DNA from: an uncultured bacterium
GTDB lineage: Bacteria; Auribacterota; JAFGBW01
Assembly: GCA_964443875.1 (NCBI GenBank)
Contig: CAYUET010000002.1
Location: 70,082 to 134,081, forward strand
DNA length: 64,000 bases
Reading direction: 5' to 3'
Under the pieces are notes generated by a model. The model made no database searches. It saw nothing but the letters and a program-made list of their open reading frames with translations, and had not been told where the DNA came from. Below, piece after piece: positions 15,534 through 50,760 of this stretch. Position 1 is the stretch's first letter. Each line of letters begins with the position of its first letter. The position numbers and the translations under genes were made by a program.

Positions 15534-18500
15534 TTATTTGGAGTCCATGGAAGAAATCTGAAAATTTTTGAGAATCAAAGCACGGTTTTCCTGGGGCTGT
15601 TTTGTTTTTATTTTCCAGCGTTTGGGTCTGTCAGATTCACAAAGTCCAATCAGAGCAGTAATATTGGCTTCATCTTTCAGAGTCTTCGGGACAGGGATTA
15701 GATGTTCGAACTGGAGAATTCCATTCTTATCAAAATTTTTTGAATAGGGTGAGTGGATTTGAATGTCTTCCTGAAAAAGGAGCTCTCCTTTGGAATTTAA
15801 AAAATGGATGAATAGATTGAACGGCGGGAGTGTTTTCTGGAGACTTTTTCCGGAGCAGTAAAACATGAGATATTCACTGGGTTTGAGAAGATGAGAGGAA
15901 AAGGCGATTGTATTGATTTCTGCTTTTCCGTCAAACAGGGCGTTTACGGGGTGTTTTTGCCATCCTTTGGAATCAGGAAGGGAAGGGGGCTCTGGCAAAG
16001 GATTTGTCATTTCTGCTTCAATCTTTTTCAATGTGAGGGAATTCAGCATAAGCTCAGGAATACCGATCATTACCCGATCCGCTGATAATGTTTCTGAAAA
16101 AAGAAAATCTGTCTGAAAATCTGTTTTCCGGGCAATAAAGCCGTCTGCCCAGATCCACCGGTCGAGACACAGGGGGGTCTTTTTAAGAATATTTCCTTTG
16201 TTGAATAGGGTGATTTTCAGATCATTGAGTTTGATGAGATCAGGATTTCGAAGGCTGATCCGGATCTTTTTTAAAAGAGTGTCCGGCTTAAGGGGGTAGG
16301 AGAGCTGAATTTCGTGAAGGGAGGAGTCATAAAGAATCTGTGGATGGGTTAAACGGGTGAGAAACAGGGACGTTTTATCGGTAAGGGGGGCAAGAGCAGG
16401 CAGGGAAACATAGCTCCATCCTTGGGACTCGTGAACCGAATAAGGGAGATGATTGTCTGTAAAAAATTGTTTTAATCCATTGAGATGAATCGATTCGAGG
16501 AGGAATCCGTTTTCTCCGAAGGGATTGATCACTCTTTCGTTATAGTCCCAAAACAGATACCTGTCCCGGTAACAGGCTTTGTCCTGAATCAGCCGGGGAG
16601 TGGTTAATCCCGGAAGGTGTTTCTGGACGGAGGGAATGAGTGCGGGCGGAAGAAATACTTTTTCTTGAGGATTAAGGCTTTGGATCAGAGACAGGGCTTC
16701 TTTTTTATCGGGTTGAAGGGAGGCATGTTGTTTATAAACAAACAGTTCAGCGATTCCCCATGAATTTTTTCCGGAGAGAGTAAGACGTATTTGTCTGAGG
16801 GGGGTCTCTTTGAAGCGGATATCAATATGTCCGTTCGGAAGGAGACGTATATTACCGTTGAATTCCTGAAAAACAGGAATGTATCCCGGTATTTGTGCAA
16901 GGGTAAGCCATTGCCCGGCTTCCTGGGCTCCTTCCACGAGAATACCTTGAGGAATGGAGGTTACATCCGTTCCGGATACCAGCTCAATTCTGCAGAGGGC
17001 GACAGGAGTCTGACAGTTAAAAGTGAGAGAGGAGTTTTTTTCGGCGGGGGAGGTCCAGAGGGTTGAAAAATGGCGGTCCAGAAGATTTTGTCCAAAAGGC
17101 GCCTTTTTATTTTCCTGTATCGGAATAAGCAGGGCCGATATGTCTTCATAGGCATTGGGGGAAAAGGTGAAATCATGGAAAACCGTGTAGCTGCCCATGT
17201 CCCTCCGTATATAAGAGCAGACAAGAGATTTTAGCTGGGTTTCAAGAGCGTCTGGATTGGGGAGATTCATCCGGCTATCCGTGATCAGGGCAGTTTTTGA
17301 AGCGTCATCCACAAGTTTTAAAAATTCGATGTTTCTGAAACCGCCGAAGTCCGAACAGATAATTTTCTTTTTACTTTCAAAGGAAACCGACTGGGCGGTT
17401 GTGAAATGAGCGTAGGCCTTTGAAATGCCCTGTTGCTCCAGATAACGGATGACTTCTTCCGGGCCTTCCATGCGTTTTTTATCATGGGCGTAAAACTGCA
17501 TGAAGGCCAGATTATAGGGAAGGACAAGAACTATGAGTATGGAAAGGAAGGGAATGTGGAGGACAGGTTTCCAGGCGGCAAATCTTTCAAAAGCGGATAG
17601 AAAGGGAATGCCCAGAAAAACATAGAGAGGCAGCCCGTAGCGGCTTAGTTGTTCCCTGCCGTTCTGGCTGAAGATGAAGCATGCGGCGAAAAAAAGAAGT
17701 CCTGAAAAAAGCATCAAGGAAACAGCATTAGTCTCCTGTCTGTTTTTGAGGCGGTTGCGGAATGAGAAGAAAAAGGACATAAAGGCCGAAATCCACACCA
17801 GCGATGTAAGTCCTGTAATAAGAGGGCCCCAGGGGTGATGGGCGAATTCCCGGCAGCGGCCGAAGAGCATGGAGGATATGTTGATGAAATTGACAAGCTG
17901 GTCGAAGTATACGGAGAAATGGGCAAGTCCCCCTTTCATACGGAAGGTAAGCCACCCGTTTTCAATATTTCCCATCCACCAGGGAAGGCTTCCGATGAAG
18001 AAGAAAAGACTCAGAAGAACCAGGGCTTTTCCCCGGTATTCGGAACGAAGCCGGATGAAAAAGACAAGGGCTCCTGCCCCCAGAAAGGGAAGGATCATCA
18101 TAAAGGTCCAGAAGCCTATCCCGGCAATCAGTCCGGCAATGGAGATTGAAACGAGGGGAAAGGAAGCCTCGGAGTTTTTCAGGGCCTGAAGAAGAAGGAT
18201 GAGAAACCAGGTTCCCAGAGCAATAGTTTGCATATAGCCGCCCATAGGGGAGAGACTGTATTCATTAAAAACGAGAGGCGGAATTGTCAGAAAAAGGGCG
18301 GTATAGACGGGAAAACGGTTTCCGTTCATTTTACGTGAAAGAATGAGCATTCCGGCTATGAGAAAGAGGGAGGAGATGAAGGGGGACATGCGGAGCCAGA
18401 AGGTATCCGTGGAAAACAGGGAAAAGAAAAACGCGGCAAGGATCGATTCCAGGGACCCCAGATAGGGGGCCCCCCAGTAAAAGGGTGAAAAACGGCCTTC

Positions 18501-18635
18501 GAGCATATCCATGGCCATGAGCCCGGGAACCGCTTCGTCATAATAGACGTGTCCGAAGCAGGGAAGTTTCCAGAAGATGAAACGAAAGGCAAGGCCTGTT
18601 GCAATCAGAGCAAGTGAAGAGACCCATTTCAACAT
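15534..18635 (-). CDS. GT-C family glycosyltransferase, ArnT/PMT-like (GT39/GT83-type) with a large C-terminal periplasmic domain
   Basis: About 1,033 aa. TM1 is followed by YYDEAVPGLMAMDMLEGRFSPFYWGAPYLGSLE, carrying the DE motif and a PYxxKPPL-like loop of ArnT/PMT. It has at least 10 predicted TM helices. The roughly 550-aa C-terminus is a discoidin-like beta-rich domain. The ATG at 18635 lies 7 nt after the ubiA stop. The longer ORF from 18677 uses GTG and overlaps ubiA. Confidence 0.75.
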   Translation of the reverse strand: MLKWVSSLALIATGLAFRFIFWKLPCFGHVYYDEAVPGLMAMDMLEGRFSPFYWGAPYLGSLESILAAFFFSLFSTDTFWLRMSPFISSLFLIAGMLILSRKMNGNRFPVYTALFLTIPPLVFNEYSLSPMGGYMQTIALGTWFLILLLQALKNSEASFPLVSISIAGLIAGIGFWTFMMILPFLGAGALVFFIRLRSEYRGKALVLLSLFFFIGSLPWWMGNIENGWLTFRMKGGLAHFSVYFDQLVNFINISSMLFGRCREFAHHPWGPLITGLTSLVWISAFMSFFFSFRNRLKNRQETNAVSLMLFSGLLFFAACFIFSQNGREQLSRYGLPLYVFLGIPFLSAFERFAAWKPVLHIPFLSILIVLVLPYNLAFMQFYAHDKKRMEGPEEVIRYLEQQGISKAYAHFTTAQSVSFESKKKIICSDFGGFRNIEFLKLVDDASKTALITDSRMNLPNPDALETQLKSLVCSYIRRDMGSYTVFHDFTFSPNAYEDISALLIPIQENKKAPFGQNLLDRHFSTLWTSPAEKNSSLTFNCQTPVALCRIELVSGTDVTSIPQGILVEGAQEAGQWLTLAQIPGYIPVFQEFNGNIRLLPNGHIDIRFKETPLRQIRLTLSGKNSWGIAELFVYKQHASLQPDKKEALSLIQSLNPQEKVFLPPALIPSVQKHLPGLTTPRLIQDKACYRDRYLFWDYNERVINPFGENGFLLESIHLNGLKQFFTDNHLPYSVHESQGWSYVSLPALAPLTDKTSLFLTRLTHPQILYDSSLHEIQLSYPLKPDTLLKKIRISLRNPDLIKLNDLKITLFNKGNILKKTPLCLDRWIWADGFIARKTDFQTDFLFSETLSADRVMIGIPELMLNSLTLKKIEAEMTNPLPEPPSLPDSKGWQKHPVNALFDGKAEINTIAFSSHLLKPSEYLMFYCSGKSLQKTLPPFNLFIHFLNSKGELLFQEDIQIHSPYSKNFDKNGILQFEHLIPVPKTLKDEANITALIGLCESDRPKRWKIKTKQPQENRALILKNFQISSMDSK

Positions 18636-18642
18636 GATGGAT

Positions 18643-19644
18643 TTACCATTGCCAGAGAGGCATGATTTGATTCTCACTGATGTTGAAAAGGGAGTAAAGG
18701 CCTGGAATTTTACACAGCATCAGGACAATAAAGAGAATGAGACAGAACAGTGTGAAAAAAACAAAATTACGTTCCCTGTAGAGTTTCTCCGGTGCCTGAA
18801 CCGGGCTGTCCGTTTTAAAGCCCAGATAGAGGTAGTAGGTGAGAAATCCTGAGAGGAAAGGAAGCATGAGAATGAGTTCCAGGTGGTAGCGCACCATGAA
18901 AATGCCGGCAAAAAGGCTTCCGGTGACAGCATAGAAGAAGACACTGAAAAGAAGCCGTTCAGGGGTGTAGTGCCGAAAGGATTTTCGGTAGGCTCCGGCT
19001 TTTCCTTCCTGTTTGATTTCCCGAAGTTCCGCAAAGCGCTTGAGGGCCATAAAAAAGGCCCCGTACATCCAGTAGGCGATGAAAAGGGATACCGGAGGAA
19101 AACGGTCCGGAATCAGAATAAACCAGCCCATCACGAGACGGATGGGGTTGTTTATGGATTCGGAAAGGACATCCAGGTAAGGGATTTCCTTGGTGCGGAA
19201 AGGGGAAATATTGTAGAACATTCCCATGATCCACAGGGAGACTGCGGCCCAGCCAAAGGGAATATTGATAGAGAAGGAGAGGCTTATGCCCACACAGGCA
19301 AGAAAGATCCATTCGGCATAACCCAGGGGAATATTGATCAGACCGGAGGGTACGGGTCTGAATTTTTTTTTGGGATGATAAAGGTCAAAGGGGGCATCCA
19401 GGATTTCATTAATCACATAGTTGCTTGAAGCCACAAGGCAGATGGCTGAAACGGAGAGCAGAAGTTTTAAGGGCGAAATGACTGAAAAATCCGGAATCAG
19501 AAAAAAAGCCAGAATAATGCCCAGCCCCATGAAAACGTTTTTAAACCAGTGATCCGGTCTTGCGATATCCACATAGGGCCCGAATTTTCCGAGTGTTTTA
19601 TAGCGGGGAATGGAGGATTTTTCACTTCCATCAATGGTTTTCAT
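18643..19644 (-). CDS. UbiA-family polyprenyl-phosphate 5-phosphoribosyltransferase (DPPR-synthase type)
   Basis: 333 aa with 8-9 TM helices. NEILDAPFDLYHPKKKFRPVPSG matches the NDxxDxxxD...HPxKRFRPIAAG signature of mycobacterial Rv3806c-type decaprenyl-phosphate phosphoribosyltransferases. A second Asp-rich region is present. Confidence 0.75.
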   Translation of the reverse strand: MKTIDGSEKSSIPRYKTLGKFGPYVDIARPDHWFKNVFMGLGIILAFFLIPDFSVISPLKLLLSVSAICLVASSNYVINEILDAPFDLYHPKKKFRPVPSGLINIPLGYAEWIFLACVGISLSFSINIPFGWAAVSLWIMGMFYNISPFRTKEIPYLDVLSESINNPIRLVMGWFILIPDRFPPVSLFIAYWMYGAFFMALKRFAELREIKQEGKAGAYRKSFRHYTPERLLFSVFFYAVTGSLFAGIFMVRYHLELILMLPFLSGFLTYYLYLGFKTDSPVQAPEKLYRERNFVFFTLFCLILFIVLMLCKIPGLYSLFNISENQIMPLWQW

Positions 19645-19809
19645 GATAAGCCCCGGACCTTTCTAAAAAGGATGTTTCCTTGAAGTATAAAAATGTTGTT
19701 TATCAACACTTTTTTCAGATACGTCAATAAAATTATATGCTGGAATTCGCTTTACAAAAAGTTCTGTTTGAAGGAATCTTAAAAACTAATTTTTAAGGAA
19801 TTTAAATAA
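19645..19809. promoter_or_regulatory. AT-rich divergent promoter region between the ubiA-GT-C operon and the GT-C paralog
   Basis: The spacer is 165 bp with no ORF and contains TGTTG-N5-CAACA. The downstream ATG has an AAGGAA RBS. Confidence 0.4.
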
Positions 19810-22800
19810 ATGTTTTTGTTCAAACGGAGCCTTTTCTGGACCTCAGCAGCAATTCTTGTCTTTGTTTTTACACGGCTGTTTTTCATCTCTCTTCCCTCCT
19901 ATGCGGTCACTTATTTTGATGAGGCGATCACCGGGCTTATGGGGATGCATCTTTTAAGGGGTGAGTTTCCCGTATTTTACTGGGGTTGTCCCTATCTAGG
20001 GCCTCTGGAGGCCCTGTTTGCAGCTCTTTTTTTTCTTATCACCGGAGAAGCCTCCACTTTTGCCTTAAGGCTTTCCCCACTCCTGGCCTACCTGATCTAT
20101 GGAGGAGCCCTTTTAGCCCAGGCAAGACTCACCATGAAAAAGGAAGTCTTTTATTTCTGTTTTCTGTTTCTGATTTTTCCGCCTTATTATCTTCTTCATT
20201 TTTCTCTGACCGCCATCGGGGATTACATGAATACGGTCATGCTTGGAAGTTTAATGATACTTCTGACCTCTATCATGATTACGGATGAAAAACGGCTGAA
20301 TTTACGGAATGTTTTTCTTCTGGGGCTTCTTTCGGGTTTTTCCTTCTGGACTTTTATTCAGACTGCGCCTGTGATTCTGGCCTGCCATTTGATTCTGTTT
20401 CTCCGGATGCGTTTCAGCTATCCGGGAATCCCTCTGCTTCTTTCCTTTCTGGGATTTGTTCTGGGGAGTCTTCCCTTCTGGATGTGGAACTGGAATAACG
20501 ATTTTTTAACCTTTACCATGAAAGTCACGGGGGCTGACCCGGGAAGTTTTCCGGGTCATGCCCGTAATTATTATGAGGTGTTAAAACTACTTCTGGGTAA
20601 CTATTCCCTTCAGCCCCAGGGATACAGGACTTTTACCGCAGGCCTTGCCGCTTTTTTTCTGATCGCGGTTCCCTGTCTTCTTTTTTCCGGACAGGGTCTT
20701 TTTGCGAGACTTAAGAAACCTGATCCTCTTCTCCTTTTGATTGTTGCTTTTACCGGAAACTCTCTGGCTTATATTGTAAGCTCGCATGGAGATCTTAAAC
20801 TCCCGCGTTATCTTCTTCCTCTTTATTCCTCGCTTCCTGTTCTTCTGCCTTTTGCCTTATCTTTTCTGCTTAAAGGGCGTTATTTTTTTGTTTTTTCAAC
20901 AGGGCTTCTTCTTTTGATGAGCCTTCCTGAAAATATCCGCTTTACGAAAAGTAATCTCGATCCTGCCTATATCAATCGTTTCACGCCCAGAAGAGCGGAA
21001 TTAAATGAGTTTTTTGATTATCTGGGACAGAATAATATCCGGCATCTTTATGGGGCCTACTGTTTTACTCAGATATTGACTTTTGAGTCCAAAAAATCGG
21101 TGACTGCTGCGGATTATTCGGGTTTCAGAAATATGAGTTACCTGCGGGAGGCGGACAATGACCCTCGCACCGGGCTTGCCGCAGAGGATCTTCTGGGGGC
21201 TCCGGACAGTGATTCCCTGGAATCCACAATCAAGCTTTTGACGAGGAAATATCAGAAGAAAAAATGCGGCCGTTTTACTGTTTTTCATGATTTTAAAATT
21301 AATGACGCCTCTGATGCCCCTTTGCCCTCCGGCAGCATTCAGAGTATTTCGGTATGTGAACAGCAGGAACGGAAAAATTTACTGAATGACAGGATTTTTG
21401 AAACCTTCTGGGAAACGCAAAAGCCCATGACCGGCAAAGAGTGGATAACTTTGACTTTTGTGAAACCGGTGAGGGTGACGCGGCTTCTTCTGATTCCGGG
21501 GACGGATTATCTTGCCTTTCCAAGAGGGCTTCGCATGGAAGGAACGGATGTCCGCGGGCACAGGATCAAGCTTGCAGAGGCGAAATCCATTTGCGGATCT
21601 TTCAAGGTTTTTCATGGAAAGCCAAGGCTTTTTGGGAAAGGGGAAATTGAGATCCGTCTGGACAAAGAAACAGAGCTTTCTTCTGTCACACTTTTTCAGA
21701 CCGGGGAGGATCGCTTTTTTCATTGGAAAATAGGGGAGATTATCCCTTTTGAACAGAAACAGGAAAATTCTCTTTTAATCAGCTCTGTGCCTGAAATTCC
21801 GGAGGACAGATTTCTTGTTACAACCCCGGAGCTATATCTCAAACATTATTATAAAACTTTCCATGATCAGCAAACCATTCCTCTTTATCCGCCCATGCTG
21901 ACTTATCTGCACTGGTCAAGGGTATGGGACTATGACACTCCCAAAAGGTATTTGAATATGGATTCTGATCTTTTGTTTATTTTGCCGCCTGATCATTGGG
22001 AGTATTTTAAAAATTATCTTCAGTCCCATGAAATAGCCTATAGTCTGAAGGAAACGCACAACCTCGTTACTGTGCAAACACAGTCCTGCGGGATTCCGAA
22101 AGATCGAAAATACATCCCTTTGCTGCCCCGGACAAAATGGGCAGAGACTTTTAATCAAAATCCGGTATTTGAAGCTTTTTTTCCTGAGCCTGTCTTGCTT
22201 TATGGTTTTAAACTGGCAAAACCGCCATGTGGATTTCAGTGGAAAGATCTGATGATTGAGATTCTGGATTCGGGCGGAGAATGGAAGTCTGTTGCTTTTA
22301 AAACTCATGAGGCCTATTGGACGGATGAAGTGATTCTGGAATCCTGCCGTGAGGGCTCAGAGGTACATTTTGAAAAACCGGTTCCTGCTCAAAAAGTTCG
22401 GTTTATTCTTCATGGCCTTTACAAAACACCTCAGGATCTTGAGGATTTCTGCAAATCAGAGATTATTGGGGATTTTAAATCCGGGAAGGACGAGTATCTG
22501 GTAAAAAAGACTGAGGCTTCGGGTTCTGTGGCAATTTTTGAAGAAACCCTTTCTCTGGATGATTTTTCTCTTAATCCTTCAAACCCTCATCCGGGCGGGT
22601 ATCTTGAGGTTCATGCCCGTTTTTCATGGCTTAAAAAGAAGAGAAAGAATATGGCTTCTACTTTTTTCCTTCATGCCCTGGACTCCACAGGGTATAAAGT
22701 TTTTCAGCTGGACAGAGATCTGGATTTTGGTAGAAACCCTCAGGATTTAAAAAAACCTTTTGAGAGGAAATATTTTATAAAAATCCCTGAATCCATTAAG

Positions 22801-22950
22801 GAGAAGTCTTTAAGGGTGATTATCGGGCTTTATGATCAGCGAACGGGTAAGCGTTCCAAGCCCTCTTCTTCTCATCCTGTCGACATGAGGTCTGTTGAGC
22901 TGGGGGAGATTTTTATTGCCCCTGATGTTCACAGACCAGAAGATCAGTGA
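19810..22950 (+). CDS. GT-C family glycosyltransferase, ArnT/PMT-like, paralog of 15534..18635
   Basis: 1,046 aa. YFDEAITGLMGMHLLRGEFPVFYWGCPYLGPLE aligns residue by residue with the paralog. Homology continues through the C-terminal domain (FESKKSV...YSGFRNMSYLRE versus FESKKKI...FGGFRNIEFLK). Confidence 0.75.
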   Translation: MFLFKRSLFWTSAAILVFVFTRLFFISLPSYAVTYFDEAITGLMGMHLLRGEFPVFYWGCPYLGPLEALFAALFFLITGEASTFALRLSPLLAYLIYGGALLAQARLTMKKEVFYFCFLFLIFPPYYLLHFSLTAIGDYMNTVMLGSLMILLTSIMITDEKRLNLRNVFLLGLLSGFSFWTFIQTAPVILACHLILFLRMRFSYPGIPLLLSFLGFVLGSLPFWMWNWNNDFLTFTMKVTGADPGSFPGHARNYYEVLKLLLGNYSLQPQGYRTFTAGLAAFFLIAVPCLLFSGQGLFARLKKPDPLLLLIVAFTGNSLAYIVSSHGDLKLPRYLLPLYSSLPVLLPFALSFLLKGRYFFVFSTGLLLLMSLPENIRFTKSNLDPAYINRFTPRRAELNEFFDYLGQNNIRHLYGAYCFTQILTFESKKSVTAADYSGFRNMSYLREADNDPRTGLAAEDLLGAPDSDSLESTIKLLTRKYQKKKCGRFTVFHDFKINDASDAPLPSGSIQSISVCEQQERKNLLNDRIFETFWETQKPMTGKEWITLTFVKPVRVTRLLLIPGTDYLAFPRGLRMEGTDVRGHRIKLAEAKSICGSFKVFHGKPRLFGKGEIEIRLDKETELSSVTLFQTGEDRFFHWKIGEIIPFEQKQENSLLISSVPEIPEDRFLVTTPELYLKHYYKTFHDQQTIPLYPPMLTYLHWSRVWDYDTPKRYLNMDSDLLFILPPDHWEYFKNYLQSHEIAYSLKETHNLVTVQTQSCGIPKDRKYIPLLPRTKWAETFNQNPVFEAFFPEPVLLYGFKLAKPPCGFQWKDLMIEILDSGGEWKSVAFKTHEAYWTDEVILESCREGSEVHFEKPVPAQKVRFILHGLYKTPQDLEDFCKSEIIGDFKSGKDEYLVKKTEASGSVAIFEETLSLDDFSLNPSNPHPGGYLEVHARFSWLKKKRKNMASTFFLHALDSTGYKVFQLDRDLDFGRNPQDLKKPFERKYFIKIPESIKEKSLRVIIGLYDQRTGKRSKPSSSHPVDMRSVELGEIFIAPDVHRPEDQ

Positions 22951-24493: not shown

Positions 24494-24687
24494 AGCGGTT
24501 TCCTTTTGGATGTTGAAAAATAATATAAAGATCCCTCTGTCAAAGAGTCAAGAAAGAAAGAAGAAATCAGTGTTCAATGTAAAGATGCTTATGAATTGAA
24601 TTTCTATTGCTTTGTTGTTTTTTGGGTAATATAAAAATTAAAAAAATGAATGTATAAAAAATACAAAATATAATTATTTTTATTAAA

Positions 24688-24710
24688 AAATGTAATAAAA
24701 AATTACATTT
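24688..24710. promoter_or_regulatory. Perfect 9-bp inverted repeat (AAATGTAAT-N5-ATTACATTT), a candidate operator
   Basis: It lies in a 308-bp AT-rich region upstream of the pilin-like operon. A related TGTAATGTATTTT follows at about 24766. Confidence 0.45.
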
Positions 24711-24840
24711 TTAGACCATAAAAGCCTTAAATGTTAATATTATGTTGTTTTTTTGAAAAAAATATTGTAATGTATTTTTTGATGATGTTGATCAGAATTT
24801 AATGAATGGCAGGGATCTTAAGAAAGAGGAGCTGAAAAGG

Positions 24841-26229
24841 ATGAAAACAACAAAAAGATTATCTGTTAAAGGGAGTGCGCTGATTGTATCTATTATTTTT
24901 TCAACCCTTATCGGGATGGGGACTGTTGCGCTTCAGAATTTTCAATACCTGACACACAAGACGAACCATAAATCTTTTGAGGGTAATAAAGCCCGCTATA
25001 TGGCGGAAGCTGGTATTATGCTTGCCCTTGATGAGCTTAATAACCAGACTTCCTCCCCTTTTTCCGGAGCCGGGGATTTTTACTGGGCTTCTTCAGGCGG
25101 TAATATTTATACCCTCTCCCGTTCGGATATCGGGAGTGTGAATGTGACGGTTGATTATACAGACCCCAATTCCGTGGTGATTAAAAGTTATGGATTCTAT
25201 CAGAGTGTAAGAAAAGGTTTAGAAGTTAAGGCTATTAAGGCAGGCTCTTCAGCCATTAATCCCATTTTCCCGGGAGCCATTGCCGCCCAGTCCGACATTG
25301 TGACCATGAATTCTTTTACCGTGGATTCCTTTGCAAATGGGGTCTATGACGCTCTTCATCCGGGCTACAACGGGCATGTGTTTACCAAAGATGACAGTAT
25401 CAATTTAAAATCAGGAACCATTGTCAGAGGTCATGTTTACGCCCCTCCAAGTCCTGTTCCGGTTTTCAATACCGGAGAAAATTCCAACGGTAATGTGTAC
25501 TGGACCGCTGCAGATGAAACTGCAGCACATAATTGCGGCGGGAGTACAGGGGTTTTTACAGAGTTTAAACCGGTCGCTATTCCTCCTCATCTTTTAATGA
25601 CAGGCTCGCCTACTGCAGTTCTGTCAAGCGGGGGGAGTTATGGAAGCGGTCATTATACAGGGGCAACGGGTCTTGGAAACTTGACTTTTACCGGCGGTTT
25701 TTATAAAATAGATGGGGATATGGCTCTTGGCAACAGCAAGGTGCTGACCATTAAAGGAAACAGTGATATCTATATCACAGGAGACTTGTCTCTGGGGAAC
25801 GGAGCGATGATAATCAATTATACCCTGAAAGCGGATGGATCTGATCCTGACACCTTGCCTGACGTGGATAAGGTTTATACCCTGAGAATTTATGTGGACG
25901 GCGGACTCACCTTTTCTCAGGGCAATGAAGTGAATATGTACTGCAATTATGATGTCACCAAGCTTCAGCTTTACGGATGCGGGAACGGCTATTTTGCAAC
26001 CCCAGCTAAAAAAATCAATATTAAAAACGGAGGGTCATTTTTCGGATTTGTCTATGCCCCGTATTATGAGGTGGAATTTAATAATGCCAATGAGGTTTTC
26101 GGCGCCTTTGCCTCGTATCAGATTATTCCGAAAAACGGATCAAAGATTCATTTTGATGAACGTTTATGGGGCTTTGTGGACGGGGTGGCCCCGGATAAAT
26201 ACGGATTAAGCGGATGGGAGGAAATATGA
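24841..26229 (+). CDS. PilX-like minor pilin (type IV pilus or pseudopilus assembly protein, PilX_N domain)
   Basis: The N-terminus KGSALIVSIIFSTLIGMGTVALQN...KARYMAEAGIMLALDEL fits the PilX N-terminal domain. The ATG at 24841 has an AGAGGAG RBS. An alternative upstream ATG lies at 24802. Confidence 0.65.
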   Translation: MKTTKRLSVKGSALIVSIIFSTLIGMGTVALQNFQYLTHKTNHKSFEGNKARYMAEAGIMLALDELNNQTSSPFSGAGDFYWASSGGNIYTLSRSDIGSVNVTVDYTDPNSVVIKSYGFYQSVRKGLEVKAIKAGSSAINPIFPGAIAAQSDIVTMNSFTVDSFANGVYDALHPGYNGHVFTKDDSINLKSGTIVRGHVYAPPSPVPVFNTGENSNGNVYWTAADETAAHNCGGSTGVFTEFKPVAIPPHLLMTGSPTAVLSSGGSYGSGHYTGATGLGNLTFTGGFYKIDGDMALGNSKVLTIKGNSDIYITGDLSLGNGAMIINYTLKADGSDPDTLPDVDKVYTLRIYVDGGLTFSQGNEVNMYCNYDVTKLQLYGCGNGYFATPAKKINIKNGGSFFGFVYAPYYEVEFNNANEVFGAFASYQIIPKNGSKIHFDERLWGFVDGVAPDKYGLSGWEEI

Positions 26230-26421
26230 AGAAGACAAACCAGACGCATTATTTGTTTAAAAGCGGATTTCACCCGAATATGGACCGGCATTGCAAATAT
26301 TCGGGAGCCAGGGTCAGGCCTATGCCGCATAGGACTGGCATGCGTAAAAAATAATCGCTTTTAAAAAAATAATAAGAGTGATCTGTGCCGTTTTACCTTT
26401 TAAACCTGAAAGGTCGAAACC

Positions 26422-26880
26422 ATGGGGATATTATGTAATCATCACGATTCCAGGATCCGGATTAAGGGATTTTCCCTGATCGAACTCCTGATCGCCATTT
26501 TTATATTTTTTCTGATTTTTTCAGGAGTCATGAAAAGTCTTGCCTCTATTTTCACTGTTCAAAAGGATTCCCGTGAACTGGCGATCGCCTCTCAGATTCT
26601 AGGTGATATTGCCGAAAAAATCACCTATATGAGAAATACGGCCGGATGGGATGTGATTGATTCTTCCACCCTGGTTTTTAACTCAACGACGGTTGCTGAA
26701 TTGAATTCTCTCCCCGGGAGTTCGGTCAATGTTGCAGTTGTACCTTATAAGGATGCATCCGGCGCAGATACGAATACTTTGAAAAGGATTACGATTACGC
26801 TGAATTGGACTTCCAAAAATGGGAAAGCAAAATCAGAGGCCTTTGAAATGGTGTTGTCAAAACCGCCGTCAGGAATATGA
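26422..26880 (+). CDS. Prepilin-type N-terminal cleavage/methylation domain protein (PilV-like pseudopilin)
   Basis: KGFSLIELLIAIFIFFLIF is a class III signal (G|FxLIE) followed by a hydrophobic helix. The protein is 152 aa. Confidence 0.7.
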   Translation: MGILCNHHDSRIRIKGFSLIELLIAIFIFFLIFSGVMKSLASIFTVQKDSRELAIASQILGDIAEKITYMRNTAGWDVIDSSTLVFNSTTVAELNSLPGSSVNVAVVPYKDASGADTNTLKRITITLNWTSKNGKAKSEAFEMVLSKPPSGI

Positions 26881-26884
26881 GTTT

Positions 26885-27508
26885 ATGAAAAAAAGAGCTT
26901 TTTCAATAGTGGAGCTGCTTATTTCTCTGACTCTGCTTGCGGTGGTGAGTATAGGTTTTTTTTCTGCCTTCCGGTTTTACCAGGCAAGAGGGCTTGCCTC
27001 CACCCAGAAAGCGATAAATCTTAATGCCATGCGTTCCTCTCTGGATAAGCTCAAACAGGATCTCCTGATTTCCAAAGGGCTTTATAACAATGATTATTCA
27101 AAAGTTCACGCCGTGAATGACCCCTTTAATGTTTATCAGACAAAAGATAATCAGCTGATTGTCAAAATTCCTTCGGTTTATTCTACCAATGAGTTTATTG
27201 ATGTATCTGATCCGGAATATACCGATTATTATTTTTATTACTTATCCGGAGGCGAGCTCATCAGAAAAACATTCAGAAGCACAAAAACGGGTTCATCCCG
27301 GCCAACGGATGATTATATTCTTGCCAAAGGATTGAAATCCATTCGTTTCAGTGACGGATTACATACTTTAGGGACTCTTTCCAGCGAAAAGCTGTTGAGC
27401 ATCCGGCATATTCAGATTGTCATTACCGCAGAGGTGCAGAACACGCTGAACGGGACTCCCCAGACTGAAACATTGACCTTGAATGTTTCCTTTCGTAATT
27501 ATATGTAA
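26885..27508 (+). CDS. Prepilin-type N-terminal domain protein (PilW-like pseudopilin)
   Basis: MKKRAFSIVELLISLTLLAVVSIGFF has Ala rather than Gly at position -1. The ATG at 26885 was chosen over the longer ORF from 26819. Confidence 0.65.
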   Translation: MKKRAFSIVELLISLTLLAVVSIGFFSAFRFYQARGLASTQKAINLNAMRSSLDKLKQDLLISKGLYNNDYSKVHAVNDPFNVYQTKDNQLIVKIPSVYSTNEFIDVSDPEYTDYYFYYLSGGELIRKTFRSTKTGSSRPTDDYILAKGLKSIRFSDGLHTLGTLSSEKLLSIRHIQIVITAEVQNTLNGTPQTETLTLNVSFRNYM

Positions 27509-27684: not shown

Positions 27685-30600
27685 ATGGTGTTTTTTAAAA
27701 AACTGACAGTCCTCCTTTTTGCCTTTATTTTTCTTTTTGAGCAGGCTTTTTCAGTTTATGCAACCCCTTGTGTTTCAAATGATTCAGAGATGTCAAAACA
27801 GTGCCTTGCTCCAAATTCAGAGATGGGAGCCATCCATGTTAAGAAACTGTTTCTCAACACCCTGATAGAGGCCTGGCTTTATTATTCCCGGAATAAGGAC
27901 CCTGAAGGGGTAATGGACTGGAAAAAAATTCATTATCACCTTGTGAAAAACGGATTTAATATCAGGGAAATATCCGGAAGCAGTGAAAAGGACAGCTATG
28001 TCACCCTTTATTTTAAAACAATGAAGGGAACCACCCAGGAGGTCTCTTTTCATTTTGACAGAAAAGGAAAAAACCTGATCAAGCCTAAAATAACTTTTCC
28101 TCCGGACAAGGAGACCTATGCTTTTGGTTTCAATGAAGGGATTGAAAGCATGGATACCCGGATTCTTGATTTTCTTGAAACACCTGCTTTTGACGAGGAT
28201 CTCTGGGCTAATCAGCAGGAAAAGAAAAAAGAAACCCTTAGGGAAGTTAATAAAAACAGCACTCCTGAAAGTTCAACGCGCATTGCCGGAGCTGTCCTTG
28301 CCTATGCGGCGACTTTTTCAGCCCTTACTTTGCTTTTTTTATATGCGCCCTTTGGGCTTTATGCCCTGGGATCTGTACTTCTGATTGCTGTGATAACGGG
28401 GCTTATCACCATGGCTGAAACAGCCCTGATCAGCACGACAAGGGATGAAAAAGCGGTGGCGTATCTTCAGAAAGAGGCTAAGAAAGGGAACCGGTCCGCT
28501 AAGAAGGCGCTTGACCTTGTGAATAAAACCCATCAGAAACTTCCTACAATCACCCTGACTAAAAATCTGGTTGGTGTTCCGGGCGGAATCATGATTTCGG
28601 GTATTTCGAATTCTTTTATTTCACGCTATTTTACGGGCGGAATAGCGGCCCAGATTCTTGACAGGATTTTTTCAGTAGTCTTGACACTTGTTTTTACTGA
28701 ACAGATTCCCAAGGATATAGCTTCTGCGGATAAAAAGGTTTATATTGTCATGGCCATGGCCCCTGTTTTTCCTTTTTTTGAAAAGATTTTGTGGCCGGTG
28801 ATAGCCCTTTTGAACAGATTAAATCATTTTTCTCTTCAGTTTGTTTCAGCTCTGTTTTTTCTGGACCGTTCCTCGCAGAAAAAACAAAGGACTTATGCTA
28901 AAAAAATGGGGAGAATTTTTGAAAATGGCTGGCTTGAAGGAACGCTTTCTGACCTGGAATACCATTTTCTTGACGGAGTTCTTGCCCTTGATTCTACAAC
29001 AGTCGGAGAGCTTTTTGCCAAAAGAGACTGGAGCTATACCCTCTTTTCGTTATCCCCGGAGCTAAGTATTTCTAAAGCCGTAGAAAAACTGGATGGAACA
29101 TTTTTTTCCTATATTCCGCTGATTGATAAATATGGTTCCTGTCACCAGGTTGTATCCAGAGAGGATATTCTTCTTCATAATCAAAAGAGGGTGACGCTGC
29201 AGAAAAAACTGGATTTTTTCCGGGATAGGAAAGAAAAATTGATGCATCACCTTGAAGTTCAGGAAGCTTCATTGAAAGAACTCCCGGAGGATGGACAAAT
29301 TCAAAGGCTGGTCTCTATTTATAAAAAACATATTCAGATTGCAGAAAAGAACTCCATGGAACTTGGATATCAGATTTCATCCCTGGAGTATAAAAATCTC
29401 CTGACTCTGGATCCTCTTCCTCATGTGATGATCAGTAAAGATCAGCCGGCGGGTGATGTGCTGAAATTTTTTCTTTCCGAATATCCACCGAAAATGGCGC
29501 TTATGGTGGATGCCCGTAAAAGGCCTGTTGGGGTGGTGACCCTGGAAGATATCATGGAATTTCTTTTTCAGCAGGAGATTTTTGATGAGACGGACATTGC
29601 CAAGAATTCTGGAAGCAGGGAAAGCCTCTCCCGGAAACCCATGCAGCTTATTTCGAATCCTGTAATTCAGAAAAACAGACGTCTGGCGGCAAGACTTCTT
29701 GAATTTAAAAAAACAAAGCCGGAAACTTCTGCATTGGATCATCGCTATGAAATTTCCCATCTGAAAAAGGAACTTGAATTTCTTTCTTCTGTTCAGATTG
29801 GTTTCCTTTTTGACCTTTTATGGGCAGATGCGTTTGGCAACCGTAAAATACAGCCTTTTATCTATTCCTGCAATATGGAGGGTTATCATGTCCTTGCCGG
29901 ATGGTTTCAGCAAAAAAAAGAGTATGAAGATCTTTTCATTCTGCTGAGAAAGGCATTTAAAGAAATCAAGCGTATGAATTCAGGGGTTCCCGCCGCACAT
30001 AATTTTCATCAGATTTACAATGACTTCTACAAATTGATCCGCTATGCCCAGATTGGAAATCCCCAGAAGGATCCCCGGATTGATTTTCTCCTTAAGGAAC
30101 CAGTGCTTCAGAAAACGGCCGCTTTTTTAATGAACAGGAATGAAGATTATTTGAAAGATAATCTGATCCGTCTGAAAGAAATGTCCCAGATTGCCGAATC
30201 CACTCAAAGTTACCATCCCCGGAGTTTTTTTAGAAAAATACAGCCTTTCCTCACCTCCGGAATGATTGCTTTTCTGATCGGGGGAGTTGTGGCTTTGGGA
30301 TTCCTGATCAGTTCACAGATGGGCGGTTTTGTTCTTGTGACCCTGACGCTTACGTTTTTATCCGGATTGATCTCTGCAATGGAAGCGGCGGTCTTTTCCG
30401 TCAACAGGGAATCAGTTGAAAACTTGAGTTATTCAGGGGATCCTCTGGCTTTCCTTCTCAAGGATATCCTTGAAAACCGGCAGAAATATATTCCGACCAC
30501 TGTATTTTTTGATACTCTGATTAAAATTCCCGGAGGGATCCTTTTGAAATCCGCATCCCTTCCCATACTCGGGGAGCTGGGAAGCTGGTTTTTTTCCACC

Positions 30601-31494
30601 CTGTGGTTTACTGTTTTCGTCAAAGTCATTCCGAAATTTTTAGGTGTAAGTTTTTCTCTTTCCGTTTCAAAAGTAGCGGCTCCTATTCTTAAATTTTTAA
30701 GAGCAGTTTTCTACCCTGTTATTTTTTTAATGCAGAAACTTACTTTGTTTTTTAAATTGTATCTCAAGGCGCTTACCTTTGGGAAAATTGATTTTATTGC
30801 CCCTGCCCATCAGAAGGAGAGCGTTGAGATTTATAACCAGCAAAGGCAGCAGATCAACCGCGTTTTTGAGTCGGAAAAACAGGAGGCTCTTGCCAGCGAA
30901 CCTGACTCACCTGTTTATAAAGAAAAGAAGACTACGCTGGGTCTTCTTGAAAAGGGTCTTGCCTTTTTCGGTGAGGTTCCGGGAGTTGTTACTGTTGCAG
31001 ACCTATTGAACATCAAAGCTCAGCAGAAATCCCTTCCGAAAATTTTTGATCTGCCTTTTGATATTACGATCGAAAAGGCCAACTCTGCTATTCAGAATTG
31101 TCCTTTTTCCAGAATTCTTCTCTATGACCGTGTTATCAACGGTAAAATGAATTACATCGGATGTGTATTCAAGGAAGATATCCTTCAGGCCTATACGGAA
31201 AAGAACAGAAGGGGAGCTCCCCTTTCGAGTCTTTTATATACCCTGGTTCCTAAAATTTCTCTTTCCTCCCCGGCAAAGGATTTGCTGAAAAAGTTTCTGG
31301 CTGTGGGAACAGCCCATCTTTCCATTGTGGAGGATGGGGAGGGAAATCCTGTTGCCGTTCTTTCTCTGGAGGATGTTATGAAATATATGCTGACCCCGAA
31401 AAATGCGGAAACACGGGTAAGAGAAAATGTACCAATCCCCGCTGAAATTTCAGAAATGATTTCCCCTTATCACCCGGAAAAACACGCGGCTTAA
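27685..31494 (+). CDS. Large membrane protein with a tandem duplication of the DUF21 (CNNM/CorC-type) transmembrane domain plus CBS domains
   Basis: 1,269 aa. It has a signal peptide, a roughly 200-aa soluble N-domain, a first DUF21 (ITGLITMAETALISTTRDE...TEQIPKDIA) with a CBS pair (VGVVTLEDIMEFLFQQEIFDE), a second DUF21 (LISAMEAAVFSVNRESVENL...VKVIPKFLG) and a terminal CBS (VAVLSLEDVMKYML). Confidence 0.7.
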   Translation: MVFFKKLTVLLFAFIFLFEQAFSVYATPCVSNDSEMSKQCLAPNSEMGAIHVKKLFLNTLIEAWLYYSRNKDPEGVMDWKKIHYHLVKNGFNIREISGSSEKDSYVTLYFKTMKGTTQEVSFHFDRKGKNLIKPKITFPPDKETYAFGFNEGIESMDTRILDFLETPAFDEDLWANQQEKKKETLREVNKNSTPESSTRIAGAVLAYAATFSALTLLFLYAPFGLYALGSVLLIAVITGLITMAETALISTTRDEKAVAYLQKEAKKGNRSAKKALDLVNKTHQKLPTITLTKNLVGVPGGIMISGISNSFISRYFTGGIAAQILDRIFSVVLTLVFTEQIPKDIASADKKVYIVMAMAPVFPFFEKILWPVIALLNRLNHFSLQFVSALFFLDRSSQKKQRTYAKKMGRIFENGWLEGTLSDLEYHFLDGVLALDSTTVGELFAKRDWSYTLFSLSPELSISKAVEKLDGTFFSYIPLIDKYGSCHQVVSREDILLHNQKRVTLQKKLDFFRDRKEKLMHHLEVQEASLKELPEDGQIQRLVSIYKKHIQIAEKNSMELGYQISSLEYKNLLTLDPLPHVMISKDQPAGDVLKFFLSEYPPKMALMVDARKRPVGVVTLEDIMEFLFQQEIFDETDIAKNSGSRESLSRKPMQLISNPVIQKNRRLAARLLEFKKTKPETSALDHRYEISHLKKELEFLSSVQIGFLFDLLWADAFGNRKIQPFIYSCNMEGYHVLAGWFQQKKEYEDLFILLRKAFKEIKRMNSGVPAAHNFHQIYNDFYKLIRYAQIGNPQKDPRIDFLLKEPVLQKTAAFLMNRNEDYLKDNLIRLKEMSQIAESTQSYHPRSFFRKIQPFLTSGMIAFLIGGVVALGFLISSQMGGFVLVTLTLTFLSGLISAMEAAVFSVNRESVENLSYSGDPLAFLLKDILENRQKYIPTTVFFDTLIKIPGGILLKSASLPILGELGSWFFSTLWFTVFVKVIPKFLGVSFSLSVSKVAAPILKFLRAVFYPVIFLMQKLTLFFKLYLKALTFGKIDFIAPAHQKESVEIYNQQRQQINRVFESEKQEALASEPDSPVYKEKKTTLGLLEKGLAFFGEVPGVVTVADLLNIKAQQKSLPKIFDLPFDITIEKANSAIQNCPFSRILLYDRVINGKMNYIGCVFKEDILQAYTEKNRRGAPLSSLLYTLVPKISLSSPAKDLLKKFLAVGTAHLSIVEDGEGNPVAVLSLEDVMKYMLTPKNAETRVRENVPIPAEISEMISPYHPEKHAA

Positions 31495-49879: not shown

Positions 49880-50308
49880 ATGAATGGAACTTATGCTTAC
49901 TACAATCCGTTAAGGGAGCTGCACTATTTCCAGAAACAGCTCAGTGATTTATTTGAGGATTTTAATGAGCGTCGTGGTGAATATCCCCTTGTGAATATCT
50001 GGGGGAATTCTGAAGGTCTTCTGGTCACAGCAGAGCTTCCTGGTCTGGATGTGAAAGACATTCAGCTGACCGCCAAAGGGGATACTCTGACTCTGGAAGT
50101 TGAAAAAAAATCAGAGGTCATTGATTCACAGGGGATCTGTATTCACAGGAATGAAAGGGAAGGTGATCCCTTTATTAAAACAGTGAGGCTTCCCTATGAA
50201 GTAAACGGGGAGAATATTTCCGCAAAATATTCCAATGGTGTTTTAAAGGTAACACTGCCTAGGGCAGAAGCGGGAAAACCGAGAAAAATAACCGTAACAC
50301 AAGAATAA
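49880..50308 (+). CDS. Small heat-shock protein (Hsp20/alpha-crystallin family), 1 of 3
   Basis: It has an alpha-crystallin domain (LVTAELPGLDVKDIQLTAKGDTLTLEV...GVLKVTLPR). The RBS is AAAGGAG. Confidence 0.85.
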   Translation: MNGTYAYYNPLRELHYFQKQLSDLFEDFNERRGEYPLVNIWGNSEGLLVTAELPGLDVKDIQLTAKGDTLTLEVEKKSEVIDSQGICIHRNEREGDPFIKTVRLPYEVNGENISAKYSNGVLKVTLPRAEAGKPRKITVTQE

Positions 50309-50335
50309 TAACCGACAACAAAAAGGAGGCTGCAC

Positions 50336-50731: not shown

Positions 50732-50760
50732 AAATTCTTAAGAACAAGGAGGTGATTTCC

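What the first reader, a model, noticed from the sequence alone, without database searches (positions are those of the whole stretch)
24841..27508. Orphan cluster of three prepilin-type proteins including a 463-aa PilX-like protein, with an unusual Ala at the -1 site
Three consecutive genes encode class III signal-peptide proteins (KGSALIVS..., KGFSLIELL..., RAFSIVELL...). No PilB/PilC/PilD/PilQ or T2SS GspD/E/F genes lie in the flanking 20 kb.

The third protein has Ala instead of the near-invariant Gly before the cleavage site. This could affect prepilin peptidase processing, so that protein may be a non-cleaved anchor. The large PilX-like protein is Ser/Thr/Gly-rich (NQTSSPFSGAGDFYWASSGG, SSGGSYGSGHYTGATGLG), giving plenty of O-glycosylation sites for the neighbouring GT-C enzymes.
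Basis: partly seen in the sequence, partly recalled or inferred. Interest (0 to 1): 0.5.

Follow-up and report, generated by a model that had tools for sequence, protein, structure and literature searches.

The report
Minor-pilin tip set with solenoid cap
These three genes are an ordinary set of "minor pilins" that most likely forms the tip of a type IV pilus-like filament in an uncultivated Auribacterota bacterium. The largest one carries an ice-binding-protein-like beta-solenoid, as in the Thermus tip pilin ComZ, and the "unusual" alanine is an accepted cleavage-site residue.

Summary
Three co-directional genes lie at 24841-27508: g1 (462 aa), g2 (152 aa) and g3 (207 aa). g2 and g3 have canonical class III signal peptides. 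g3 has Ala at -1. No pilus or secretion machine gene lies anywhere in the 64-kb window.

The interpretation mostly fails.
- **Ala at -1.** It is within the published definition of the motif (Gly or Ala). It is identical in two independent assemblies. It is kept in four diverged orthologues and recurs in a fifth lineage. It occurs in 5 of 80 representatives of the wider g3 family.
- **Fold assignments.** The g3 model (pLDDT 92.5) matches only GspJ/XcpW/EpsJ pseudopilins. The g1 model is a GspK-like pilin domain plus an ice-binding-protein-like beta-solenoid (Pfam DUF7305), with ComZ of Thermus as the best Foldseek match. g2 looks PilV/GspI/ComGE-like, but weakly.
- **What the trio is.** It is a PilX-PilV-PilW (GspK-I-J) tip/priming set. 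It is conserved under purifying selection (dN/dS 0.13-0.20) and sits in different contexts in relatives.
- **Link to a machine.** In Phycisphaerae, DUF7305 proteins lie inside complete ATPase-platform-PilM-secretin operons.
- **Glycosylation idea.** The Ser/Thr/Gly-rich stretches are conserved and confidently modelled. The "GT-C" neighbours are neither syntenic nor confirmed.

Verdict: a new member of a known kind, of modest interest.

The parts
24494..24840 (.). AT-rich intergenic region between the divergent DUF4301 gene and g1. It is the presumed promoter region of the trio. GAGGAG lies 9-15 nt before the g1 ATG.
   Evidence: Sequence read directly. The promoter scan gave only consensus-level matches, so the promoter is inferred, not shown.
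24841..26229 (+). g1: a 462-aa PilX/GspK-class tip minor pilin. It has a class III-like N-terminus without Glu5 (KG|SALIV), a pilin domain (helix 13-68, strands 89-133) and an ice-binding-protein-like beta-solenoid (about 147-440, Pfam DUF7305 at 279-442). A conserved C-terminal strand follows at 454-461.
26226..26354 (+). A 42-aa, very basic small ORF whose ATG overlaps the g1 stop codon (ATGA). Its first ~17 codons correspond to the g2 leader peptide of a relative. It marks an insertion of about 190 nt between g1 and g2.
   Evidence: The 84%-identical relative L037 has an ORF of the same length (57% aa and 66% nt identity; differences at codon positions 1/2/3 = 13/10/21). L035, L005, L001 and L007 have g2 directly after g1. 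No Pfam hit. Function unknown.
26422..26880 (+). g2: a 152-aa minor pilin with a canonical class III signal peptide (IRIKG|FSLIELL, Glu5). Probably PilV/GspI/ComGE class.
   Evidence: Pfam N_methyl 25.8 bits against a cut-off of 21.2. NCBIfam, all below cut-off: ComGE E 4e-7, PilV E 1e-3 over residues 15-128, GspI E 0.024. Four of 5 orthologues hit PilV and ComGE. dN/dS 0.15. No structure was predicted.
26885..27508 (+). g3: a 207-aa GspJ/PilW-class minor pilin with the class III signal peptide MKKRA|FSIVELL (Ala at -1, Phe+1, Glu5) and a C-terminal FRN motif.
   Evidence: Pfam N_methyl 22.1 bits against 21.2. AF2 model, pLDDT 92.5. The top 20 Foldseek PDB hits are all GspJ-class chains (the XcpGHIJK filament-model chain 9a1f_S, XcpW, EpsJ, GspJ 3CI0_J; E 8e-6 to 2e-3), followed by TTHA1219. 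The [LF]RN C-terminal motif is present in 78 of 84 family representatives. Two of 70 family members hit Pfam PilW and one hits T2SSJ. dN/dS 0.20.

Best explanation
The three genes encode a core minor-pilin set of a type IV filament: g1 is PilX/GspK-class, g2 is PilV/GspI-class and g3 is PilW/GspJ-class.

Inferred mechanism, step by step:
1. All three proteins are inserted in the inner membrane by their N-terminal hydrophobic helix.
2. g2 and g3 (and possibly g1) are cut after Gly or Ala and N-methylated by a prepilin peptidase encoded elsewhere.
3. The three assemble through their alpha-1 helices into a GspIJK-like heterotrimer that primes filament assembly and stays at the tip.
4. g1 lacks Glu5, as cap subunits do. 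It sits on top and presents its ice-binding-protein-like beta-solenoid (DUF7305) as a bulky tip 'plug' or ligand-binding module, as proposed for ComZ of Thermus thermophilus and for cyanobacterial PilX.
5. The ATPase, platform protein, secretin, peptidase and major pilin are encoded elsewhere in the genome.

Shown here: the genes, the motifs, the predicted folds, conservation of the trio, purifying selection, and physical embedding of DUF7305 homologues in complete machine operons in Phycisphaerae.

Inferred only: formation of the complex, processing, tip location, and the ligand.
For: - **Motifs.** g2 and g3 have canonical class III peptides, and g1 lacks Glu5.
- **g3 fold.** Every one of the top 20 PDB matches is a GspJ-class pseudopilin.
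- **Precedent.** ComZ is a GspK-like pilin domain plus an ice-binding-protein-like solenoid. It binds the GspI-like PilA2 and is argued to be a tip pilin (PMC6561018). Cyanobacterial PilX have the same architecture and occur in PilX-PilV-PilW-FimT sets (bioRxiv 10.64898/2026.02.12.705559).
- **g2.** It gives weak PilV/ComGE/GspI hits, reproducible in 4 of 5 orthologues.
- **Conservation.** The trio g1-g2-g3 is kept in order in at least 7 lineages at 44-84% g1 identity. dN/dS is 0.13-0.20.
- **Link to a machine.** In Phycisphaerae/Planctomycetota loci, two DUF7305 proteins, each preceded by two pilins, lie between T2SSE-T2SSF and PilM...secretin. An Omnitrophota locus has a g2-like, a g3-like and a DUF7305 gene in a row.
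- **Phylum background.** Some Auribacterota MAGs are reported to encode type IV pili (PMC9324843). The window is Auribacterota by its NusA neighbours.
Against: - No machine, peptidase or major pilin gene could be shown for this genome. Only 64 kb of a 222-kb contig is visible, and the genome was not in the searchable genome set.
- g1 has no sequence-level match to ComZ, GspK or PilX_N. The similarity is structural only, from a model of moderate confidence (pLDDT 79.8, pTM 0.64), and the Foldseek TM-score to ComZ is low (0.19).
- The class of g2 rests on sub-threshold profile hits, and no model was made.
- No FimT/GspH-like fourth minor pilin is present in the window.
- Heterotrimer formation was not modelled.
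Confidence: 0.75

Rival explanations
1. The cluster is a machine-less orphan. g3 is a non-cleaved membrane anchor because Ala replaces Gly at -1. The Ser/Thr/Gly-rich g1 is a substrate for O-glycosylation by the neighbouring GT-C enzymes.
For: - Ala at -1 is real and is the minority state (5 of 80 family representatives).
- g1 is richer in Ser/Thr/Gly than its neighbours.
- Two large multi-pass membrane proteins and a UbiA prenyltransferase lie 2-9 kb upstream.
- From my own knowledge: a GT-C arabinosyltransferase (TfpW) glycosylates pilin in some Pseudomonas aeruginosa strains.
Against: - Gly or Ala is the defined -1 residue, and Ala-1 pilins are processed in streptococci.
- Ala is conserved in four diverged orthologues and recurs in L007 and in Phycisphaerae operon pilins.
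- The rich stretches are conserved structural motifs with pLDDT 70-96.
- The neighbours give no glycosyltransferase hit at E<=1. They are not in the same transcription unit and are not syntenic in any relative.
Confidence: 0.05
2. The trio is the tip of a type II secretion pseudopilus (a secretion piston) rather than of an extended pilus.
For: - The closest solved relatives of g3, and of the g1 pilin domain, are T2SS pseudopilins (XcpW/EpsJ/GspJ; GspK/XcpX).
- The Phycisphaerae operons carry T2SSM_b-like and T2SSB-like hits and a GspD-type N0 secretin.
Against: - The same operons carry PilM and an MshEN-type ATPase, which are typical of type IV pili.
- Thermus minor pilins also resemble T2SS pseudopilins yet serve pili (PMC6561018).
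- A bulky ~300-residue solenoid cap is known from pilus tip pilins (ComZ, cyanobacterial PilX), not from characterised T2SS GspK.
- The fold cannot discriminate between the two.
Confidence: 0.15
3. The trio is specifically a ComZ-like DNA receptor of a competence pilus, used for natural transformation.
For: - ComZ binds DNA and pairs with a GspI-like pilin.
- The closest NCBIfam hits of g2 and g3 are competence minor pilins ComGE/ComGF, below cut-off.
Against: - There is no sequence homology to ComZ, and its DNA-contacting lysines cannot be mapped.
- The same fold is proposed to act as an adhesin or plug in cyanobacteria, and ice-binding-like domains are generic adhesive modules.
- No ComEA/ComEC genes are in the window.
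Confidence: 0.12
4. The three genes are decaying remnants of a lost pilus system.
For: - No machine genes lie within 24 kb upstream or 36 kb downstream.
- A ~190-nt insertion separates g1 from g2 and has displaced the ancestral g2 start.
Against: - All three ORFs are intact.
- dN/dS is 0.13-0.20.
- The trio is conserved across lineages down to 44% identity.
- g2 has acquired a new start with a basic leader ending in Gly.
Confidence: 0.05

Closest known systems
ComZ-PilA2-PilA3 competence minor pilins of Thermus thermophilus (PDB 6QVI; PMC6561018)
   Same: - A large tip pilin made of a GspK-like pilin domain and an ice-binding-protein-like triangular beta-solenoid.
- It is encoded next to a GspI-like pilin and a further ~200-aa minor pilin. 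TTHA1219 is the next PDB match of g3 after the GspJ proteins.
- The N-terminus of the large subunit is non-canonical.
   Different: - No detectable sequence similarity.
- g1 is shorter (462 against about 550 aa).
- The gene order is K-I-J.
- No adjacent major pilin or GspH-like pilin.
- DNA binding is untested.
- Different phylum.
Cyanobacterial core minor pilin sets PilX-PilV-PilW-FimT (bioRxiv 10.64898/2026.02.12.705559)
   Same: - PilX with a beta-solenoid resembling ice-binding proteins, inserted before the last strand.
- Co-encoded with PilV and PilW family pilins.
- The sets are often unlinked from the machine.
- The solenoid is proposed as a tip plug replacing PilY1.
   Different: - The window's set has only three members, with no FimT/GspH-like pilin.
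- Membership of the cyanobacterial subfamilies was not tested.
- No adjacent glycosyltransferase or major pilin.
GspK-GspI-GspJ (XcpX-XcpV-XcpW) pseudopilus tip complex of type II secretion (PDB 3CI0, 5VTM)
   Same: - Three minor subunits of about the same relative sizes.
- The cap subunit lacks Glu5.
- The g3 fold matches GspJ, and the g1 pilin domain matches GspK.
   Different: - GspK carries an alpha-helical insertion, whereas g1 carries a beta-solenoid.
- No Pfam T2SSK, T2SSI or T2SSJ hits for the window proteins.
- Not embedded in a gsp operon.
Phycisphaerae/Planctomycetota pilus-like operons with paired DUF7305 genes (for example L012, JAGPMT010000016.1)
   Same: - Same Pfam domain (DUF7305), with 22-28% identity to g1.
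- Each DUF7305 gene is grouped with two pilin genes, and some of those pilins have Ala at -1.
   Different: - There the sets are duplicated in tandem and sit between the ATPase/platform genes and the PilM...secretin genes.
- The order is pilin-pilin-DUF7305.
- In the window's lineage the set is single and unlinked.

Membership tests
Type IV pilin / pseudopilin (class III signal peptide, Pfam PF07963, IPR012902) | A short hydrophilic leader ending in Gly or Ala, followed by about 20 hydrophobic residues with Glu at +5 | tested here: met
   g2 has IRIKG|FSLIELL and g3 has MKKRA|FSIVELL. N_methyl scores are 25.8 and 22.1 bits against a cut-off of 21.2. g1 has KG|SALIV with no Glu5 and no N_methyl hit, so the feature is met for g2 and g3 only.
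Type IV pilin / pseudopilin (class III signal peptide, Pfam PF07963, IPR012902) | Pilin fold: a long N-terminal alpha-helix packed on an antiparallel beta-sheet | tested here: met
   The g3 model has helix 8-62 plus seven strands (pLDDT 92.5). The g1 model has helix 13-68 plus strands 89-133. g2 was not modelled.
Type IV pilin / pseudopilin (class III signal peptide, Pfam PF07963, IPR012902) | Cleavage and N-methylation by a prepilin peptidase, and assembly by a GspE/PilB-GspF/PilC machine | not testable with these tools
   No peptidase or machine gene is in the window. The rest of the genome could not be reached.
GspK / PilX class cap minor pilin | No Glu5; pilin domain superposable on GspK | tested here: met
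GspK / PilX class cap minor pilin | Profile match to T2SSK or PilX_N, and the alpha-helical insertion domain of GspK | tested here: not met
   No such Pfam or NCBIfam hit at E<=1. The inserted domain is a beta-solenoid. g1 is therefore GspK-like in role and core fold but is not a member of the T2SSK family.
ComZ-type / cyanobacterial-PilX-type beta-solenoid tip pilins | A pilin domain combined with a triangular beta-solenoid of the ice-binding-protein (DUF3494-like) fold | tested here: met
ComZ-type / cyanobacterial-PilX-type beta-solenoid tip pilins | [quoted passage not shown] | tested here: inconclusive
   The order of secondary structure fits: four strands, then the solenoid, then a conserved terminal strand at 454-461 after a low-confidence linker. 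The model coordinates could not be inspected.
ComZ-type / cyanobacterial-PilX-type beta-solenoid tip pilins | Sequence homology to ComZ; DNA binding | tested here: not met
   The profile of the g1 family does not find 6QVI at E<=10. DNA binding cannot be tested here. The resemblance is therefore structural and architectural only.
GspJ / PilW class minor pilin | GspJ fold | tested here: met
   The top 20 Foldseek PDB hits of the g3 model are all GspJ-class chains: the XcpGHIJK filament-model chain 9a1f_S, XcpW, EpsJ and GspJ (prob 1.00, E 8e-6 to 2e-3).
GspJ / PilW class minor pilin | Profile match to Pfam PilW (PF16074) or T2SSJ (PF11612) | tested here: not met
   g3 itself hits only N_methyl. 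Among 70 members of its HMMER family, 2 hit PilW (best E 2.7e-9) and 1 hits T2SSJ. The link is transitive only.
GspI / PilV / ComGE class minor pilin | Profile match above cut-off, or GspI fold | tested here: inconclusive
   For g2, all hits are below cut-off: ComGE E 4e-7 (30 bits against 49), PilV E 1e-3 (19.4 against 52.2, aligned over residues 15-128) and GspI E 0.024. Four of 5 orthologues hit PilV and ComGE. No structure was predicted.
Verru_Chthon cassette pilin-like proteins (TIGR02596-02600) | Match to cassette protein A-D models | tested here: not met
   The window proteins gave no hit at E<=1. One g2 orthologue hit protein C at E 0.033 only.

The most novel reading that the evidence does not exclude
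The Auribacterota-type trio is a minimal tip module that lacks a FimT/GspH-like member and has become genomically independent of its machine. Its DUF7305 solenoid is a lineage-specific receptor for DNA, polysaccharide or a partner cell. The recurrent Gly-to-Ala switch at -1 in g3 and in Phycisphaerae minor pilins reflects a PVC-group prepilin peptidase with relaxed or shifted specificity, used to order or time subunit processing. The conserved 42-aa basic ORF inserted between g1 and g2 would then be a new small regulator or chaperone of tip assembly.
Probability: 0.12. Interest if true: 0.5.

Novelty: new member of a known kind. Interest (0 to 1): 0.3.

Why it matters
- It gives Pfam DUF7305 a structural reading and a probable role: the beta-solenoid cap of PilX/GspK-class minor pilins.
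- It extends the ComZ/cyanobacterial-PilX architecture to Auribacterota, Planctomycetota (Phycisphaerae) and Omnitrophota, phyla where pilus biology is essentially unstudied.
- It provides a natural series of Gly/Ala -1 variants within one orthologous group, which could be used to probe prepilin peptidase specificity.
- For genome annotation, it shows that a 'hypothetical protein' trio should be labelled as a core minor-pilin set.
- None of this overturns current understanding.

Tried and rejected
- **Exact look-up of g1 on its source contig.** It failed. Only short Logan contigs carry g2, so the 222-kb source contig beyond the window and the rest of the MAG could not be examined.
- **Genome-collection scan.** It did not contain the source genome. 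The closest entry was an Auribacterota MAG with 75% g1 identity.
- **Sequence-profile searches of the three families against the PDB.** They gave only N-terminal-helix hits to geopilins, plus a chance hit of the g1 profile to filovirus GP1 (E 2.7e-4 over 88 residues), which I regard as spurious.
- **Literature search for DUF7305.** It found nothing.
- **Supplements of the Auribacterota paper.** They are not held, so which pil genes those MAGs carry could not be read.
- **A fourth gene.** A 138-140-aa two-TM protein accompanies the trio in L005, L007 and L009. It is absent from the window and from L001, it is not a pilin, and it has only weak EI24/DUF4271 hits. I dropped it as a core part.
- **Sequencing error at the Ala codon.** Rejected (and orthologues).
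- **Terminator and promoter scans.** Not above shuffled expectation.
Full report
**What is in the sequence**

Three co-directional ORFs occupy 24841-27508 on the + strand.

- g1 (24841-26229, 462 aa) starts MKTTKRLSVKG|SALIVSIIF. A GAGGAG ribosome-binding site lies upstream. Orthologues start at the same Met, so the 475-aa upstream start is unlikely.
- g2 (26422-26880, 152 aa) has IRIKG|FSLIELL.
- g3 (26885-27508, 207 aa) has MKKRA|FSIVELL.

g2 and g3 pass Pfam N_methyl above its gathering score. g1 hits only DUF7305 (PF23981, residues 279-442, E 6e-15). It lacks Glu5 and does not hit N_methyl or PilX_N. A six-frame motif scan finds no other pilin-type N-terminus in a real ORF anywhere in the window.

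Pfam scans of all long ORFs show housekeeping and transport genes. These include ValRS, NadC, CoaBC, RibF, TruB, IF-2, NusA, DinB, a TRAP transporter, a Na+/H+ exchanger, RNase PH, HSP20 genes and DnaJ. No T2SSE, T2SSF, prepilin peptidase, PilM/N/O or secretin was found. A tblastn search with machine proteins from a relative also found nothing.

**Organism**

The nearest named relatives of g1 and of NusA are 'Candidatus Aureabacteria/Auribacterota' MAG proteins. The source genome itself is not in the species-representative genome set. Its 222-kb contig could not be fetched.

**The Ala at -1**

- The codon is GCT. Two independently assembled runs (SRR8925805 and SRR8925774) are 100% identical to the window over 5.5 and 2.3 kb, including this codon. 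It is not a sequencing error.
- Among orthologues of g3 in trio-type loci, five have Ala and five have Gly.
  - Ala: the window, P0015 (94% identical, MKNRA|FSIVELL), P0016 (74%, MNRRA|YTILELL), L035 (VKKRA|FTFIELF) and the distant L007 (RRRA|FSFVELL).
  - Gly: L005, L001, L009, L022 and P0019.
- Ala is thus retained in the window's subclade while the neighbouring residues change, and it arose again in L007.
- An exhaustive HMMER search with the g3 profile against 1.84 billion cluster representatives found only 84 relatives at E<=0.001. Of the 80 with a recognisable cleavage motif, 75 have Gly and 5 have Ala.
- Pilins with Ala at -1 also occur inside complete Phycisphaerae pilus operons (MQTA|FTLIEVM and RKQA|FTLIECL in L012).
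[quoted passage not shown] It also shows that all five ComG pilins of S. sanguinis end in Ala and are processed by ComC (PMC7212644; PMC3244431).

Ala is therefore a minority but normal state. Nothing suggests that g3 is an uncleaved anchor.

**What the three proteins are**

*g3.* The model was built from 70 family members and has pLDDT 92.5. Its 20 best Foldseek matches in the PDB are all GspJ-class chains: the XcpGHIJK filament-model chain 9a1f_S, XcpW, EpsJ and GspJ of 3CI0. The Thermus minor pilin TTHA1219 comes next. The family shares a C-terminal [LF]RN motif (78 of 84). A few members reach Pfam PilW or T2SSJ.

*g1.* The model has pLDDT 79.8. It shows a long N-terminal helix, a four-stranded sheet, a large beta-rich domain and a conserved terminal strand.
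- Foldseek ranks ComZ of Thermus thermophilus first (E 3.7e-8), followed by ice-binding proteins.
- This is the architecture described for ComZ: a GspK-like pilin domain with an ice-binding-protein-like solenoid, proposed to cap the pilus and shown to bind the GspI-like PilA2 (PMC6561018).
- The same architecture is described for all cyanobacterial PilX proteins (bioRxiv 10.64898/2026.02.12.705559).
- There is no sequence-level similarity to ComZ.

*g2.* It gives sub-threshold but reproducible hits to PilV, ComGE and GspI.

Taken together, the sizes, the Glu5 pattern (absent in g1, present in g2 and g3) and the folds fit a GspK-GspI-GspJ / PilX-PilV-PilW tip set.

**Conservation and context**

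The trio occurs in the same order in relatives with 44-84% g1 identity. In every relative it sits between different genes:
- hydrogenase and DsbD in L001;
- MaoC and ATP synthase in L005;
- LysE, DUF445 and two PVC-type pilins in L007;
- TGT in L009.

No ATPase, platform, PilM or secretin gene lies within the available flanks of these loci. dN/dS against L035 is 0.13 for g1, 0.15 for g2 and 0.20 for g3, so the genes are maintained.

Distant DUF7305 homologues (22-28% identity) in Phycisphaerae/Planctomycetota sit inside complete operons. The order there is T2SSE (with MshEN), T2SSF, a major-type pilin, two pilins, DUF7305, two pilins, DUF7305, PilM, T2SSM_b-like, T2SSB-like, secretin. An Omnitrophota contig has a g2-like, a g3-like and a DUF7305 gene in a row.

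This ties the protein family physically to a type IV filament machine. In the Auribacterota-type lineage the set has simply become unlinked from it. A published survey reports type IV pili in some Auribacterota MAGs (PMC9324843). Whether this genome has them could not be tested.

**The glycosylation idea**

g1 is indeed Ser/Thr/Gly-rich (27.9%), but so are beta-solenoids in general. The 2721-aa beta-helix protein in the window has 23.4%.

Both are conserved motifs (PF[ST]G..F.W and SGG.Y..GHY.G). Both lie in regions modelled with pLDDT blocks of 70-86 and 92-96. They are not disordered linkers.

The 'GT-C' neighbours (15534-18677 and 19810-22950) have no glycosyltransferase Pfam hit even at E<=1. 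A convergent DUF4301 gene separates them from g1. No relative shares them. Glycosylation is not excluded, but nothing supports it.

**Mechanism proposed**

The following is inferred, not shown.
1. The three proteins insert in the inner membrane.
2. g2 and g3 are cut after Gly or Ala and N-methylated by a peptidase encoded elsewhere.
3. The three form a GspIJK-like heterotrimer that primes polymerisation of a major pilin and remains at the tip.
4. g1 needs no Glu5 because no subunit lies above it. It caps the filament and exposes its solenoid as a plug and/or ligand-binding surface.

Whether the filament is a pilus or a secretion pseudopilus is open, and so is the ligand (DNA, polysaccharide or a surface).

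**Novelty and score**

This is a new member of a known kind. It gives DUF7305 a structural and contextual meaning and extends ComZ-type tip pilins to PVC-related candidate phyla. It contains nothing that would surprise a pilus specialist. Interest 0.3.

Noticed in passing
window 26226-26354 (+), spacer 26230-26421; L037 1786-1914: A 42-aa, very basic ORF (11 Lys/Arg) starts on the g1 stop codon (ATGA). It fills most of a ~190-nt spacer that other relatives lack. L037 has an ORF of identical length (57% aa and 66% nt identity, with third-position changes predominating). Its first ~17 residues align with the g2 leader peptide of L035. It looks as if an insertion split the ancestral g2 start and g2 acquired a new leader. 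It is unclear whether the small ORF is functional.
   Followed up: partly
L005 4003-4422; L007 12439-12855; L009 9367-9789 (- strand): A 138-140-aa two-transmembrane protein accompanies the trio in three relatives. It is not a pilin and has only weak EI24/DUF4271 Pfam hits. It is absent from the window and from L001 (tblastn).
   Followed up: partly
L012 5131-18953 (Phycisphaerae MAG JAGPMT010000016.1); also L014, L017, L024-L027: These loci are complete type IV filament operons with two tandem 'pilin-pilin-DUF7305' sets between T2SSE(MshEN)-T2SSF and PilM...secretin. The first pilin of each set in L012 has Ala at -1. A hybrid histidine kinase/response regulator lies just upstream.
   Followed up: partly
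window 15534-22950: Two ~1046-aa multi-pass membrane proteins on opposite strands flank a UbiA-family prenyltransferase (18643-19644). Neither has a significant Pfam hit; only a weak F5/8 type C match at 521-565 of the second.
   Followed up: partly
window 27685-31494 (+): A 1269-aa protein immediately downstream of g3 contains two CNNM transmembrane modules with CBS domains. This is an unusual tandem duplication of a CorC/HlyC-type transporter module.
   Followed up: no
window 52744-60909 (+): A 2721-aa protein with right-handed beta-helix/NosD, CarboxypepD_reg, SdrD-B and SpaA-like domains. It is probably a giant surface adhesin.
   Followed up: no
L007 13753-15201 and 15253-15993: In one relative, two PVC-style pilin-like proteins (GGFTLIELLVVIGIL...) and a flagellin gene lie 1.4-3 kb downstream of the trio.
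   Followed up: no
g1 family profile (alignment A1), profile positions 170-257: The HMM of the g1 family hits Marburg/Ravn virus GP1 chains in the PDB at E 2.7e-4 over about 88 residues. I judge this a chance match in a compositionally similar region.
   Followed up: no
window 49880-51276 (+): Three HSP20 genes lie in tandem, directly followed by a DnaJ-family gene (51351-52301).
   Followed up: no
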